This document shows positions 2,553-58,871 of a stretch of DNA of 64,000 bases, piece after piece. The translations under genes and the position numbers were made by a program. Origin of the DNA: Eledone cirrhosa (Eukaryota); assembly GCA_964016885.1 (NCBI GenBank), contig OZ024740.1, positions 423,584,001-423,648,000 on the forward strand. Reading direction: 5' to 3'. Under the pieces are notes generated by a model. It was not told where the DNA came from. It saw nothing but the letters and a program-made list of their open reading frames with translations, and did no database searches. Within the stretch, counting starts at the first letter, position 1; each line of letters opens with the position of its first letter.

Positions 2553-2643
<91 letters not shown>

Positions 2644-2646
2644 TAT
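2552..2646. repeat. (CA)n(TA)n microsatellite
   Basis: Direct dinucleotide runs. Confidence 0.95.
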
Positions 2647-2801
2647 TGTTATACTTTGGGAGGGTCATGTTGCCAATAAGAAACACACGCACCAGTTGCT
2701 TTCACTTCAATTTAATTTATTATATATTTATAAATTTACAAATTTATAAATTTCTGGTTGGTTGGTTGGTTCCACAACCAGATAGTTGTTTATATATATA
2801 T

Positions 2802-2846
2802 AGTCATAGTTCTTTCGTCACACACTCTGTGACCTCTTCAGTGACT
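2802..2846 (-). ncRNA. Minimal type I hammerhead ribozyme motif (inverted copy)
   Basis: Reverse complement of 2913-2957 in the left palindrome arm. Confidence 0.8.
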
Positions 2847-2912
2847 GGGGATTTCTTTCTTCGTTTCTGTGGGAAAGAAAGGAAAGGCACAGAAACGAAG
2901 AAAGAAATCCCC

Positions 2913-2957
2913 AGTCACTGAAGAGGTCACAGAGTGTGTGACGAAAGAACTATGACT
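2913..2957 (+). ncRNA. Minimal type I hammerhead ribozyme motif
   Basis: Stem I AGTCA(2913-17)/TGACT(2953-57); core CTGAAGA+G; stem II GTCACA/TGTGAC with GAGTG loop; GAAA; 2-bp stem III AG-aa-CT; cleavage triplet CUA (2950-52). Confidence 0.8.
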
Positions 2958-3222
2958 ATATATATATAAACAACTATCTGGTTGTGGAACCAACCAACCA
3001 ACCAGAAATTTATAAATTTGTAAATTTATAAATATATAATAAATTAAATTGAAGTGAAAGCAACTGGTGCGTGTGTTTCTTATTGGCAACATGACCCTCC
3101 CAAAGTATAACAATATCGGTTTCAACACACGATTTCAGATAAAGAATCTTGCTAAACAAATTCAGAAACGAAATATATATATATATATAAATATTTTGTA
3201 TCTCCAAAGAAATACACTTTTA

Positions 3223-3405
3223 GGAAGCCGTAGCTATGCAAACACCGGGAAGGCTAACGCCCTCTGGTGATGTCCAGCAGAAGCAAGGGGGACAACCGTC
3301 TATGCATTTCAGGCTTAACTGGCCTTCGTCAGGTCCCTCCTTGCTTCTGCTGGACATTACCAGAGGGCGTTACCCCTCCCCCCGTGTTTGCATAGCTACG
3401 GATCC
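3223..3405. mobile_element. Foldback/MITE-like element with ~70-bp imperfect inverted arms, flanked by TA on both sides
   Basis: CCGTAGCTATGCAAACAC...CTCTGGTGATGTCCAGCAGAAGCAAGGGGGAC (to 3293) pairs with GTCCCTCCTTGCTTCTGCTGGACATTACCAGAG...GTGTTTGCATAGCTACGG (from 3333). TA at 3221-22 and 3406-07. Confidence 0.6.
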
Positions 3406-4587
3406 TAAAGCTGTAAGGTCGTAATTTATCAAATCGTCCCAGGTTTTTCTGAGTCTACCTACTCTGTAACTACCATCAATTTTGATCGCCCTATACTTTT
3501 TTATACAGCTGTCGTCTTTCATGCGCATCATGTGACCATACCAACGCAGTCTTCTCTCAAGTAAATAGCATCTGATCCCTCTTATTCCTAATTTCTCACT
3601 TAATTCATTTATGCTTTGCCGTTCATGTATATTACTATTACACATCCAACGGAGCATGCACGCTTCGTTCCTTTCCAGTCTGCGCAGGTCCTCTGCACAC
3701 AATGCCCATGTCTCACTGCCATGTAGCATTGCTGTTCGTATACAGGCATCATACAATCTGCCTTTCATTTTTAGAGAGAAACCTTTTGTGGCCAACAGCG
3801 GTATAAGCTCTCTGAACTTTTTCCACCCCGTTCTGACTGTACTTTCAGAGCACCCTCCACCAATGCTGATTTTGTCACTCAGGTAACGGAAAGTGTCAAC
3901 TATTTCTGTAGAAACATCTGGGCAATAGGAGCTAGTATCCTGTGGACACTTGCTACTTATTGCACCTGAGCATCGGCCACATATGAAATCTATGTTCTTA
4001 GATAGTTTACCTGTGATCCCACTACAATTTTTATGTACCCATACTTTGCATTTGGGACATAAAATGGAATTTCTGCCTACTCCTTTCCTACACACTGAGC
4101 ATGGCCATTTCCCTGAGGGTACCTGTGCCCTATTTTCCTTTCTACAAACTAGAACTTTAGTCTTAGACAAGTTAACTTTAAGGCCTTTTGATTCTAGGCC
4201 ATTCTTCCTTGTTTGGAATCTCTTCTCTAGTTCAGCCATAGATTCAGCTATGAGAGTTAGATCATCTGCGTATAGGAGTTCCCATGGGCAGCCGGTCTTG
4301 AACTCCTCTGTTATAGCCTGAAAGGCAATAATAAATAGGAGGGGGCTAAGGACAGAGCCTTGATGAACACCAACTTTTACACTAAATTCTTCACTATATT
4401 CGTTGTTAATTCTAACCTTGCTGACTGTTTCTTTATACATGGCTTGTATAGCTCTCCCAAGCCATTCATCTACACCTAGTTTTCTAAGAGCCCACCAGAT
4501 AATGGAGTGGGGGACTCTGTCAAAGGCTTTCTCCAAGTCAACAAAGGCTAAGTATAGGGGTTTACTTTTAGCTAGGTACGTCTCCTG
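3406..4587 (-). mobile_element. 5'-truncated RTE-clade LINE: partial reverse transcriptase, PHD-like zinc finger and C-terminal region (open frame)
   Basis: ORF 3370..4680 contains LYLAFVDLEKAFDRVP, GVHQGSVLSPLLF, LLYADDL, GLKVNLSKTK, MLHGSETW and RRLRWYGHMMR, typical of RTE-clade ORFs. No endonuclease domain. The N-terminal MCIYVCVCV stretch is microsatellite read-through. Confidence 0.93.
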
Positions 4588-4622
4588 TTCAATAAATGAG
4601 AAATATATAGTGTTCCTGTTTC

Positions 4623-4624
<2 letters not shown>

Positions 4625-4675
<51 letters not shown>

Positions 4676-4680
4676 CACAC
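4625..4680. repeat. (AC)n microsatellite
   Basis: Direct dinucleotide run. Confidence 0.95.
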
Positions 4681-54400: not shown

Positions 54401-56194
54401 TGTAGTGGTATTGACTAATGTACTCCAATCTAATTCTATATAAGACTGTAGTGGTATTGACTAATGTACTCCAATCTAATTCAATATAAGACTGTAGTGG
54501 TATTGACTAATGTACTCCAATCTAATTCAATATAAGACTGTAGTGGTATTGACTAATGTACTCCAATCTAATTCTATGTAAGACTGTAGTGGTATTGACT
54601 AATGTACTCCAATCTAATTCTATATAAGACTGTAGTAGTATTGACTAATGTACTCCAATCTAATTCTATATAAGACTGTAGTGGTATTGACTAATGTACT
54701 CCAATCTAATTCTATATAAGACTGTAGTGGTATTGACTAATGTAGTCCAAGCTAATTCAATATAAGACTGTAGTGGTATTGACTAGTGTACTCCAATCTA
54801 ATTCTATATAAGACTGTAGTGGTATTGACCAATGTACTCCAATCTAATTCTATATAAAACTGTAGTGGTATTGACTAATGTACTCCAATCTAATTCAATA
54901 TAAGACTGTAGTGGTATTGACTAATGTACTCCAATCTAATTCTATATAAGACTGTAGTGGTATTGACTAATGTAGTCCAATCTAATTTTATATAAGACTG
55001 TAGTGGTATTGACTAATATACTCCAATCTAATTCTATGTAAGACTGTAGTGGTATTGACTAATGTAGTCCAATCTAATTCAATATAAGACTGTAGTGGTA
55101 TTGACTAATGTACTCCAATCTAATTCTATATAAGACTGTAGTGGTATTGACTAATGTACTCCAATCTAATTCAATATAAGACTGTAGTGGTATTGACTAA
55201 TGTACTCCAATCTAATTCAATATAAGACTGTAGTGGTATTGACTAATGTACTCCAATCTAATTCTATGTAAGACTGTAGTGGTATTGACTGATGTACTCC
55301 AATCTAATTCTATATAAGACTGTAGTAGTATTGACTAATGTACTCCAATCTAATTCTATATAAGACTGTAGTGGTATTGACTAATGTACTCCAATCTAAT
55401 TCTATATAAGACTGTAGTGGTATTGACTAATGTAGTCCAATCTAATTCAATATAAGACTGTAGTGGTATTGACTAGTGTACTCCAATCTAATTCTATATA
55501 AGACTGTAGTGGTATTGACCAATGTACTCCAATCTAATTCTATATAAAACTGTAGTGGTATTGACTAATGTACTCCAATCTAATTCAATATAAGACTGTA
55601 GTGGTATTGACTAATGTACTCCAATCTAATTCTATATAAGACTGTAGTGGTATTGACTAATGTACTCCAATCTAATTCTATATAAGACTGTAGTGGTATT
55701 GACTAATGTACTCCAATCTAATTCTATATAAGACTGTAGTGGTAGTGACTAATGTAGTCCAATCTAATTCTATATAAGACTGTAGTGGTATTGACTAATG
55801 TACTCCAATCTAATTCTATATAAGACTGTAGTGGTATTGACTAATGTAGTCCAATCTAATTCTATATAAGACTGTAGTGGTATTGACTAATGTACTCCAA
55901 TCTAATTCTATATAAGACTGTAGTGGTACTGACTAATGTACTCCAATCTAATTTTATATAAGACTGTAGTGGTATTGACTAATGTAGTCCAATCTAATTC
56001 TATATAAGATTGTAGTGGTATTGACTAATGTAGTCCAATCTAATTCTATATAAGACTGTAGTGGTATTGACTAATGTACTCCAATCTAATTCTATATAAG
56101 ACTGTAGTGGTACTGACTAATGTACTCCAATCTAATTCTATATAAGACTGTAGTGGTATTGACTAATGTAGTCCAATCTAATTCTATATAAGAC
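6469..56194. repeat. 46-bp satellite DNA, left array (~1,080 monomers by length)
   Basis: Consensus AAGACTGTAGTGGTATTGACTAATGTA[C/G]TCCAATCTAATTCTATAT in head-to-tail tandem, single orientation, sharp left edge. Confidence 0.99.
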
Positions 56195-56744
56195 TTTAGC
56201 AGTATTAGTTGTAGATGTTATCACCACTTTAGCAGGGTGGTAGAATCAGTGGTCGTTAGTTGCCAGTGTGGTAAGTGATAGTATCCTCGTCGGATTATCT
56301 TGTCGACATAGATGTGAGGGAAGGTCCCTCGATCTATTTACCATCTATTTACACTATTCCTTTCGTCAGGTCGCCAATTCCAGCAGCATGGATTAAAGAT
56401 GTTATTGAGACACGAGTAAAACAACGACTTCAACCGCAGTAATTAGAGATGCAATGTTTGTTTATTTATATGGTTGAAGTTACAGATAAAAAGAGGTTAC
56501 ATTAGGGAATGTGCCATTGCGCCGTTAATCCGGCGAGGCTAGTGGTGCAATATCTCACTGTTACATTATGCGTGTTACTGGCTCGAAGTTTCCGGTACAA
56601 GCTAGAGATTCTTCAAATCTTCGCGGGGAATTTCTTCCTCAGGGCGTGTAGGGATACATCCTCTTCTACTGGCGCTGATTGGCTGAACTGAGCCAAATCA
56701 CGGACAGAGAATGTATGTGAGCCCGCGGAATGTAGGTCACTACA
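56195..56744 (-). repeat. 3' LTR (550 bp)
   Basis: Direct repeat of 58322-58871 with 10 substitutions counted by eye. On the minus strand it starts TGTAGTGACC and ends CTGCTAAA; AATAAA at 56461-66. Confidence 0.95.
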
Positions 56745-56758
56745 TCACCTCCAACCAG
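56745..56758 (-). other. Putative polypurine tract
   Basis: Minus strand CTGGTTGGAGGTGA directly abuts the TG start of the 3' LTR; only moderately purine-rich. Confidence 0.55.
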
Positions 56759-58307
56759 ATTTTCAGTTGAAAATCGATAACGATGAAACCAAGGACTCAC
56801 ATATTAAATCAGCAAGAACAAATGCTGAAAGAGCGCATCAGTGAAAAAAATAATTGAGCAGAAGGTTGCATGCAAGAACAAAAAATGAGGTGCTACGGGC
56901 CGTGTTGAGCCGCTGTGTCAAATGACCAGTTGTTTTGTTGTTTATACGTGACCGCCAAAGGTCTAACAAAAAACGGATAAAGTCTGACATGGGCGAAGTT
57001 GCTGTTCTTGCATTAAATGTTAATGGTAAGCGTTGTACCAGTAGCTGTGAACGAAGCTATTATGGTAGTTTACCAGTTCTGGCGAGAAAATGATGGCCCC
57101 CAGATGTATTGTCGAATGTGCTGTGGAGCCAGGAAAAAATGGCTGGTTGCTTTGTAAAGAACAAAAGGCAAGTTTAATTTGTAGGTGGGTTGCAGTGTAA
57201 ATTCCATAATTTGGGCGAATCCACAGAAGTGGCCGAAATGCTAACAAGTCCAGTTCAATTTGTTGCTTTCCCAGCGAGTCGGGCAAAAACAACAAGACGG
57301 ATGGCCGTCATGGACGATCAGTGTACAACGAGATGCGAAGCTGTTTGAGTTCAGCGGCAATTAGTATTCTCGTGTTGCGGTGACTGTTTGAATCCAGTGG
57401 ATTAAGCTCTGTGAGCTGCCAGCATCTCAACCAGGTGAAAAGGGACTCGCAGAATATTACGTTTGAAGAACATGTACCAAGAACAACATGTTGGTGTGTG
57501 ATAAAAAAAATGTGTGCATATGCAGGCATGTAAAACAGCAAAGAATGTGAATGAACAAAAACCATGAGCAAGCAAATAGCAAAAGAACACAAAACAAGTA
57601 AATGCATTCTACAAAGAAATATGTGAATGTAACAAACTGATAATTCAAAGTCAATCTAGGGGAGCAGAGAAATTGCTCAATAAGTTCAAAGTTTTTCAAA
57701 GTCAAATAGTTCACACATCACCAGTGTACAGACACTAGTTCTATCTGAAAACTGAAAAAGAAGTTTGTTAATGCCGTTAGGGGTTAGATGTATGGTGTTT
57801 TTGTGAGATTTCGTGGCCATTTTCCCGTCCCGCCACACGGTTGTGCTGCTTATTGTTAAAGCAAAGTCAAAAAATCTTCTGTAGAGTAGGAGTCACCAAA
57901 TATGGCAGTCACGTCTGACGCCATAATGGTGAGAAAACTACTGTCTCAATTTCTCGCGTCCCTGTGGTAACGAGACAGAAGGTATGGTGGTTGCGTCGGT
58001 AAAGTTACAAGCCGTTTTGAAATTTCCGATGTGTGGTGGTTGGCGTTGGTAAGGTTATGAAGCTGCCACTCACTGTTCCCTGTATTGGTCAGTGGTTAAA
58101 CAATGCTGTCGCTGCTGCTGTCATTGTTGTTGTCAAGCGTAGCCATGACATGTCGGTAGCCATCTTGAAATTTTTTCGTGGCGAAAAAGTTTTTGAAATA
58201 CTGCTAATTTTTCAAAAATCTTAAAAGGAATATTCTGGATTTTCGCAAGTTGTGACGTGGCAATAAAAGTTAAACTGAATGAATAAGAAGGGCTGCGTGA
58301 TATTCTT

Positions 58308-58320
58308 ACGTCGGTCACCA
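58308..58320 (-). other. Primer binding site, tRNA-Trp-like
   Basis: Minus strand TGGTGACCGACGT lies 1 nt after the 5' LTR. It matches the complement of the animal tRNA-Trp 3' end (TGGTGACCCCGACGT) with a 2-nt deletion. Confidence 0.75.
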
Positions 58321-58321
58321 C

Positions 58322-58871
58322 TTTAGCAGTATTAGTTGTAGATGTTATCGCCACTTTAGCAGGGTGGTAGAATCAGTGATCGTTAGTTGCCAGTGTGGTA
58401 AGTGATAGTATCCTCGTCGGATTATCTTGTCGACATAGACGTGAGGGAAGGTCCCTCGATCTATTTACCATCTATTTACAATATTCCTTTCGTCAGGTCG
58501 CCAATTCCAGCAGCATGGATTAAAGATGTTATTGAGACACAAGTAAAACAACGACTTCAACCGCAGTAATTAGAGATGCAATGTTTGTTTATTTATATGG
58601 TTGAAGTTACAGATAAAAAGAGGTTACATTAGGGAATGTGCCATTGCGCCGTTAAGCCGGCGAAGCTAGTGGTGCAATATCTCACTGTTACATTATGCGT
58701 GTTGCTGGCTCGAAGTTTCCGGTACAAGCTAGAGATTCTTCAAATCTTCGCGGGGAATTTCTTCCTCAGGGCGCGTAGGGATACATCCTCTTCTACTGGC
58801 GCTGATTGGCTGAACTGAGCCAAATCACGCACAGAGAATGTATGTGAGCCCGCGGAATGTAGGTCACTACA
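58322..58871 (-). repeat. 5' LTR (550 bp)
   Basis: Direct repeat of 56195-56744, adjacent to the PBS. Confidence 0.95.

What the first reader, a model, noticed from the sequence alone, without database searches (positions are those of the whole stretch)
2802..2957. Pair of divergent minimal hammerhead ribozymes at the centre of a palindrome
Seen: AGTCA-CTGAAGAG-GTCACA gagtg TGTGAC-GAAAG aa CTA-TGACT has every type I hammerhead element (stem I, CUGANGA core with a 1-nt insert, 6-bp stem II, GAAA, 2-bp stem III, NUH triplet CUA). It occurs once on each strand, reading outward. Known: such stem-III-minimal hammerheads mark the pseudo-LTRs of Penelope-like elements and are thought to cleave as dimers. 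Inference: a self-cleaving RNA motif invisible to the ORF track. A transcript crossing the palindrome in either direction would contain one ribozyme plus its full antisense, so the long hairpin could compete with ribozyme folding. The stem III here (AGAACU) is not fully self-complementary.
Basis: partly seen in the sequence, partly recalled or inferred. Interest (0 to 1): 0.75.

Follow-up and report, generated by a model that had tools for sequence, protein, structure and literature searches.

The report
Penelope retroelement ends joined back-to-back
The two mirror-image hammerhead motifs (predicted self-cutting RNAs) are real and sit in two shortened ends of one very common Penelope-type jumping gene joined back to back in a TA repeat; this is a known kind of element, and the pairing is likely a by-product of how it inserts.

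Summary
The motif is real (2 matches, 0 in 100 shuffles). It is the pseudo-LTR hammerhead of a young Penelope-like retrotransposon. Its 35-mer has 8,426 exact genomic copies, and the right arm matches a tandem copy with an intact 1,318-aa RT/GIY-YIG frame at 300 of 302 nt. Shared variants avoid core and stems, and a sister family shows two compensatory stem-II pairs. The palindrome is not a built ribozyme pair. It is two 5'-truncated copies joined head to head inside (TA)n. All 42 typed pairs have one arm with and one without a 60-nt tail. Spacing is arbitrary, and some pairs lack one ribozyme. Truncations show no spike at the predicted cut site, so templates were likely copied uncut. In a read-through RNA the 229-bp hairpin would suppress the ribozyme fold. 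Cleavage itself is untested. Opposite-strand pairs were already reported (PMC4209133), and this scan noted similar two-end patterns in other families of this genome. Known kind; modest interest.

The parts
2913..2957 (+). Minimal type I hammerhead motif (predicted ribozyme; predicted cut after 2952)
   Evidence: family conservation
2802..2846 (-). Identical hammerhead motif in the inverted arm (predicted cut between 2807 and 2806)
2875..3176 (+). 5'-truncated Penelope-like copy (pseudo-LTR only), long-end arm; begins 43 nt upstream of C3
   Evidence: 300 of 302 nt identical to the pLTR/ORF start of an intact tandem copy, no gaps
2643..2871 (-). 5'-truncated copy, short-end arm; begins 30 nt upstream of C3
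2872..2874 (.). 3-nt head-to-head junction not matched to either arm
   Evidence: row W, gap 3
3091..3176 (+). First 86 nt of the element's ORF (ATG at 3091, 173 nt after C3)
3117..3176 (+). 60-nt 'tail', present on the right arm only; both end sites read AATAT followed by CG in the full element
2562..2646 (.). (TA)n-type tract at the left end (target)
   Evidence: sequence
3173..3190 (.). (TA)n tract at the right end (target), shared with the end of a second repeat family
   Evidence: sequence

Best explanation
The palindrome is one insertion of a Penelope-like retrotransposon, made of two 5'-truncated copies joined head to head in a (TA)n tract; each copy keeps the element's predicted hammerhead, and the two arms were likely made by two reverse-transcription starts, one from each nicked target strand, on an RNA not yet cut by the ribozyme. 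Shown: identity to the element, position in the pseudo-LTR between stop codon and next ATG, (TA)n flanks, two fixed 3' ends 60 nt apart with one of each per pair, near-identical arms, variable 5' truncation, and conservation of core and stems across subfamilies. Inferred: the element's GIY-YIG nuclease nicks both strands of (TA)n; each 3' end primes at one of two AAUAU sites 26 and 86 nt into the ORF, probably helped by 4-5 nt of TA pairing; both cDNAs copy the same RNA or the same source locus, stop early and are joined end to end. The motif is under selection in the active element, where it likely cleaves slowly, as a dimer or with the element's protein, to process tandem transcripts. At this locus it is likely inert: there is no ORF and no tandem partner, and a read-through RNA would fold into a 229-bp hairpin. 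Odds: about 0.95 for identity, 0.9 for by-product of insertion, 0.6 for the two-primer, one-template detail.
For: 8,426 exact copies of the 35-mer, 0 for the reversed control; 11,656 copies of a downstream anchor. [quoted passage not shown] C3 lies 294 nt after the stop and 173 nt before the next ATG. 42 of 42 typed divergent pairs have one long and one short end; arms differ by a median 0.5% within pairs against 2.6% between pairs (861 comparisons). Among the first 100 anchor places, 24 neighbours within 6 kb are head to head and 0 tail to tail. In 36 pairs with a clean junction the long arm reaches further in 22, the short arm in 12, equal in 2 (p=0.12). Shared variants among 25 full copies fall at 0 of 35 core/stem positions, 3 of 10 tolerant ribozyme positions and 4 of 25 flank positions (p=0.006). 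Sister family C (10,335 exact hits; protein about 50-68% identical) keeps the core and swaps two stem-II pairs compensatorily. Only 3 of 35 nearby truncations start exactly at the cut site, against 3.2 expected (tallied by eye). PMC11167929 shows for another Penelope-like element that both strands are cut and extended, that two start sites delimit the tail, that uncut RNA is the substrate and that the ribozyme needs the protein.
Against: No cleavage or expression data exist for this family. The covariation is only two independent events (A/B against C), and 108 of 500 shuffles reach the observed number of covarying pairs. Stem I shrinks to 2 bp in family C. The window's helix III hexamer AGAACU gives no stable duplex in trans (+1.4 to +2.4 kcal/mol), yet it is the commoner variant (6,029 against 4,182 for AGGACU). 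Positions +33 to +35 together hold 14 of 35 truncations (p=0.07), so some cleavage before copying is not excluded. Arm identity could also come from two RNAs of one source locus or from later gene conversion. Several junctions are near-perfect palindromes, which fits fold-back priming. One further pair (L093) has an arm that ends before either fixed site and was not typed.
Confidence: 0.8

Rival explanations
1. Fold-back self-priming: one cDNA is made, its 3' end loops back and copies itself, giving the inverted arm (self-priming proposed in PMC3846280).
For: Arms are near-identical. Some junctions are palindromic with both arms stopping within a few bases of each other (L087, L090, L045, L097, L062).
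Against: A fold-back arm cannot hold sequence absent from the first strand, yet in 12 of 36 pairs the short-end arm reaches further 5' while only the other arm has the tail. It also does not explain why every typed pair ends at two different fixed sites.
Confidence: 0.12
2. The divergent pair is a functional unit, for example a bidirectional ribozyme switch held off by its own antisense.
For: Perfect 229-bp arms with two intact motifs; the hairpin dominates the fold.
Against: The perfection reflects youth (300 of 302 nt identical to an active-type copy). Spacing is arbitrary and ribozymes are lost from one arm in several pairs. The locus lies among repeats beside a satellite array.
Confidence: 0.03
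3. The motif is a conserved protein-binding or folding element of hammerhead origin that no longer cleaves in this family.
For: Weak helix III, 2-bp stem I in family C, no cut-site spike, and low activity of such motifs in vitro (PMC4209133).
Against: All catalytic positions are free of shared variants, and position 17 varies only between A and U in the families aligned, as cleavage chemistry requires (established hammerhead rules, recalled). The Anolis motif cleaves once protein is added (PMC11167929).
Confidence: 0.15
4. The palindrome is a sequencing or assembly fold-back artefact.
For: 100% identical arms.
Against: The arms end at different fixed sites and have different truncation points, the same anatomy as 41 other pairs.
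Confidence: 0.01

Closest known systems
Minimal hammerheads in pseudo-LTRs of metazoan Penelope-like elements (Cervera and de la Pena 2014, PMC4209133; parts 1-2 of 4 of the text read, supplements not seen)
   Same: Type I topology, long stem II, short stem I, extra base between 9 and 10.1, G10.1-C11.1, tiny helix III, location in pLTRs, thousands of truncated copies, and pairs on opposite strands 100-700 bp apart.
   Different: Helix III loop here is AA or GA rather than strictly palindromic. No family of this host group appeared in the passages read.
EN+ Penelope-like elements of the Nematis/Neptune type (Craig et al. 2021, PMC8557442; passages and supplement parts 54-55 read)
   Same: Single ORF with DKG-type motif, RT, CX2-5CxxC linker, C-terminal GIY-YIG with CCHH; partial tandems; inverted 5'-truncated copy; tail at one end; (TA)n bias.
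   Different: The tail is 60 nt (30-40 described). The linker is short like the Nematis rows of Fig. S2, not long like the Neptune rows (compared by eye; no phylogeny). A long Asn/Thr-rich stretch lies in the N-terminal part.
Poseidon element of Anolis carolinensis, PAc (Frangieh et al. 2024, PMC11167929; parts 1-2 of 4 read)
   Same: Two reverse-transcription start sites inside the ORF start delimit the tail; AT-rich targets; uncut RNA is copied.
   Different: Here both end sites read AATAT and run straight into target TA repeats, which suggests short pairing with the primer; PAc starts at sites reported as non-homologous. The ribozyme lies wholly upstream of the ATG here, whereas it overlaps the ATG in PAc.
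Adineta vaga Penelope elements (Arkhipova et al. 2013, PMC3846280; passages read)
   Same: Head-to-head inverted pLTRs, optional tail on one of them, pLTR reaching into the ORF, Asn-rich inserts.
   Different: Few copies there and described case by case; here a high-copy family allows counting.
Animal non-LTR retrozymes (PMC7229834 and bioRxiv 10.64898/2026.07.22.740005; passages read)
   Same: Type I hammerhead in a short repeated unit.
   Different: This piece is not a non-coding tandem unit: it is the end of a protein-coding element and has a minimal, not canonical, hammerhead.

Membership tests
Type I minimal hammerhead (PLE type) | Core C3 U4 G5 A6 N7 G8 A9, G12 A13 A14, A15.1-U16.1, H17 | tested here: met
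   no shared variants at core positions in 25 copies; invariant in 13 aligned rows of three subfamilies/families
Type I minimal hammerhead (PLE type) | Stem II closed by G10.1-C11.1, with an extra base after A9, and covariation | tested here: met
   100% of cells paired, 2 compensatory pairs between families A/B and C; only two events
Type I minimal hammerhead (PLE type) | Stem I of 4-5 bp flanking the core | tested here: met
   5 bp in the window, 4-5 in families A/B; only 2 bp in family C
Type I minimal hammerhead (PLE type) | Palindromic helix III able to pair in a dimer | tested here: inconclusive
   AGAACU duplex +1.4 to +2.4 kcal/mol, AGGACU -1.7, AGAUUU about 0; outer pairs kept
Type I minimal hammerhead (PLE type) | Self-cleavage after H17 | not testable with these tools
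   needs an in vitro assay; no cut-site spike among truncations
Rfam hammerhead families | Match to a curated covariance model | tested here: not met
   no hammerhead model among 37 hits at E<=1; 0 hits at gathering score in 5 loci
EN+ Penelope-like elements | Single ORF with RT and C-terminal GIY-YIG bearing CCHH | tested here: met
   1,318-aa frame in L081/L082; motifs read by eye against Fig. S2. Pfam gave only a weak RVT_1 hit (E 0.00096) and no GIY-YIG hit on the 863-aa L046 frame
EN+ Penelope-like elements | Pseudo-LTRs from tandem units, inverted 5'-truncated copy, tail at one end | tested here: met
Nematis or Neptune clade | CX2-5CxxC linker before the GIY-YIG domain | tested here: met
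   C-x4-C-x2-C in the family protein; definition
Nematis or Neptune clade | Placement by RT phylogeny | not tested
   no named reference proteins were available as session sequences; short linker looks Nematis-like
Non-LTR retrozyme | Non-coding 150-450-nt tandem unit with canonical hammerhead | tested here: not met
   tandem units are 4,083-4,423 nt and coding

The most novel reading that the evidence does not exclude
Head-to-head Penelope insertions are made by a fixed two-primer mechanism: the two nicked strands of a (TA)n target each prime at a different one of two AAUAU sites, 60 nt apart, on one and the same uncut RNA, so that every mirror insertion has exactly one tail. The hammerhead acts outside this step. 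The 42-of-42 rule in a family with over 10,000 copies makes the long-open origin of Penelope inverted repeats and tails testable by counting and in vitro.
Probability: 0.5. Interest if true: 0.6.

Novelty: new member of a known kind. Interest (0 to 1): 0.3.

Why it matters
As a ribozyme find it is ordinary: one of thousands of copies of a described kind. Its value is as a counted record of Penelope integration. Published work leaves open how the inverted arms and the tail arise (PMC8557442, PMC11167929, passages read). A young family with intact frames, strict end asymmetry and natural helix III variants (AGAACU, AGGACU, AGAGCU, AGAUUU) gives direct tests of both the integration model and the dimer model of minimal hammerheads.

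Tried and rejected
A DNA similarity search of the own genome with the arm returned nothing because common words are skipped; pattern searches replaced it. Rfam gave only hairpin-type microRNA models below their gathering scores, rejected as matches to any long hairpin. ORFs over the palindrome had no Pfam match (0 of 2); they are chance frames. Expression: no RNA holder listed, which is no evidence either way. Contigs of 4 runs laid on 2875-2990 showed other letters at 2930, 2948, 2949, 2952 and 2957 only. That table misses the known loop II variant at 2934, so it was not used as a test, and contigs cannot show RNA ends. Candidate extra hammerhead families at L131-L135 proved to lie in LINE-like coding sequence or lacked stems and were dropped. 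My first label 'Neptune' was softened after seeing Fig. S2. In one search, 51 of 100 listed rows were intact copies with a longer TA run, 10 were truncated inside the TA run and 4 were small indels; these 65 were dropped before the 35-row tally, and 247 further rows were not listed. In one search, 4 of 40 loci were dropped for junction gaps over 60 nt, and one counted row (L083) is probably mis-paired because of a tandem copy. In one search very short pairs have inflated substitution counts because the compared window runs into the other arm, and the end finder may have skipped a few copies. [quoted passage not shown] Subscription papers such as the 2004-2006 Penelope papers cited there are outside the library, and bioRxiv supplements are closed.

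Full report
Observation. The motif is at the stated place on both strands. A generic hammerhead core pattern matches only 2918-2952 (+) and 2807-2841 (-) in the window, and never in 100 shuffles. The two copies lie in perfect 229-nt inverted arms, 2643-2871 and 2888-3116. Stems I and II form in the predicted fold, though the isolated 45-mer is not unusually stable (z -1.12). In the context of one arm, stem II pairs have probability 0.95-0.99 and stem I pairs 0.54-0.66. Rfam has no matching hammerhead model.

What it belongs to. The window comes from a 3.0-Gb animal genome. The best named relative of the family protein is labelled Octopus vulgaris (69% identity), so the host is likely a cephalopod (inference). 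The motif's 35-mer has 4,200 + 4,226 exact copies and the reversed control none. Longer loci show it in the pseudo-LTR of a Penelope-like element. [quoted passage not shown] C3 lies 294 nt after the stop codon and 173 nt before the next ATG. The window's right arm equals that junction at 300 of 302 nt without gaps, so the insertion is young. By eye against Fig. S2 of PMC8557442 the short linker resembles Nematis more than Neptune. No phylogeny was run, so the clade stays open.

Is the ribozyme under selection? Among 30 copies picked by an anchor outside the motif, 25 cover it fully. Variants shared by two or more copies occur at 0 of 35 core and stem positions, at 3 of 10 tolerant positions (loop II, loop III, position 17) and at 4 of 25 flank positions (p=0.006; positions are not independent events). 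Subfamily B (6,829 hits) has U at position 17. Family C (10,335 hits) has a protein about 50-68% identical and clearly diverged flanks, yet keeps the core and replaces two stem-II pairs compensatorily; a subset changes G-C to G-U in helix III. Against: this is two covariation events only, stem I falls to 2 bp in family C, and the window's AGAACU helix III is not a stable duplex in trans, although it is commoner than AGGACU (6,029 against 4,182). I judge the motif a true PLE-type minimal hammerhead whose cleavage is unproven. Such motifs were inactive as monomers and weak as dimers in PMC4209133, and protein-assisted in PMC11167929.

Why a divergent pair. Among the first 100 anchor places, 24 neighbours within 6 kb are head to head and none tail to tail, at spacings of 162-5,395 nt. 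Nearly all copies end in (TA)n at one of two fixed sites, 26 or 86 nt into the ORF; both read AATAT followed by CG in the full element. Of 109 typed terminal copies in the fetched loci, 84 form 42 divergent pairs within 10 kb, and all 42 have one long and one short end. The pairs were chosen by motif position, not by end type. One more pair (L093) has an arm that stops before either site and could not be typed. Arms of one pair differ by a median 0.5% against 2.6% between pairs. The 5' truncation points vary widely between the arms (long arm further in 22, short in 12, equal in 2 of 36), and in several pairs one arm stops inside or after the ribozyme. The window is simply a very short case: truncations 43 and 30 nt before C3 and a 3-nt junction. 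The pair is therefore a product of insertion, not a conserved arrangement.

Mechanism. The inverted truncated copy and the one-sided tail are described features (PMC8557442; PMC3846280). The Anolis protein cuts and extends both strands from two start sites that delimit the tail (PMC11167929). I infer that each nicked strand of (TA)n primes at one of the two AAUAU sites on the same RNA or source locus, and that the two truncated cDNAs are joined. Simple fold-back fails for the 12 pairs in which the tail-less arm is the longer one. If the ribozyme had cut the template first, copies would stop 35 nt after C3. Most run through intact: 8,426 exact 35-mers against 11,656 anchors. Only 3 of 35 nearby truncations, tallied by eye from the 100 listed rows of 347, start exactly there, against 3.2 expected; +33 to +35 together give p=0.07. 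So uncut (or re-ligated circular) RNA is likely the template. At this locus a read-through RNA folds at -402 kcal/mol, and forcing the ribozyme costs 75.7, so the motif is likely silent here. The two motifs cannot dimerise in cis because only one is in sense in any transcript.

Novelty. Minimal hammerheads in pLTRs, including pairs on opposite strands 100-700 bp apart, are in print (PMC4209133). My searches found no printed count of the one-tail-per-pair rule, but the library lacks most subscription papers and the supplements of PMC4209133 were not seen. Earlier notes of this scan describe similar two-end patterns for other families in the same genome (unchecked AI notes, seen after my own counts). 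Verdict: new member of a known kind, interest 0.3; the end-asymmetry rule is the part worth following.

Noticed in passing
Its family has 968 pattern hits with stem II variants and looks like a non-coding unit of about 350 nt ending in (TA)n. The window copy is itself a head-to-head fold-back cut off at C3, so it lacks the 5' strand of stem I, and it abuts the Penelope long end across the TA tract.
   Followed up: partly
window 3370-4680 (-): RTE-like LINE remnant, 436-aa frame with RVT_1 and PHD matches; the family label RTE is recalled.
   Followed up: partly
window 6469-64000 and about 570-1810: A 46-bp satellite fills most of the window; a 61-bp tandem array lies upstream.
   Followed up: no
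window about 56190-58870: An LTR-like insert in the satellite, with 98% identical direct repeats 2,127 nt apart and no frame of 120 aa or more.
   Followed up: no
genome-wide, L152-L167: Several more hammerhead-like repeat families with GAAAU/GAAAC cores; 5,775 pattern rows against 546 control rows, with some places counted twice.
   Followed up: partly
L101-L115 (family C): The sister family keeps the short end site and the first codons of the ORF almost unchanged while the rest of the pLTR has diverged, pointing to a cis-element for the reverse-transcription start. Its subfamilies differ in helix III (AGAACU against AGAUUU).
   Followed up: partly
G000:C1:200207948 and C2:56942512: Two copies of different subfamilies lack the same two bases at the predicted cut site; slippage is the simple reading, cut-and-rejoin is not excluded.
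   Followed up: no
L034:5599-7200, L049:965-3893: Another, distant Penelope-like family (RT and GIY-YIG frames) lies near some copies.
   Followed up: no
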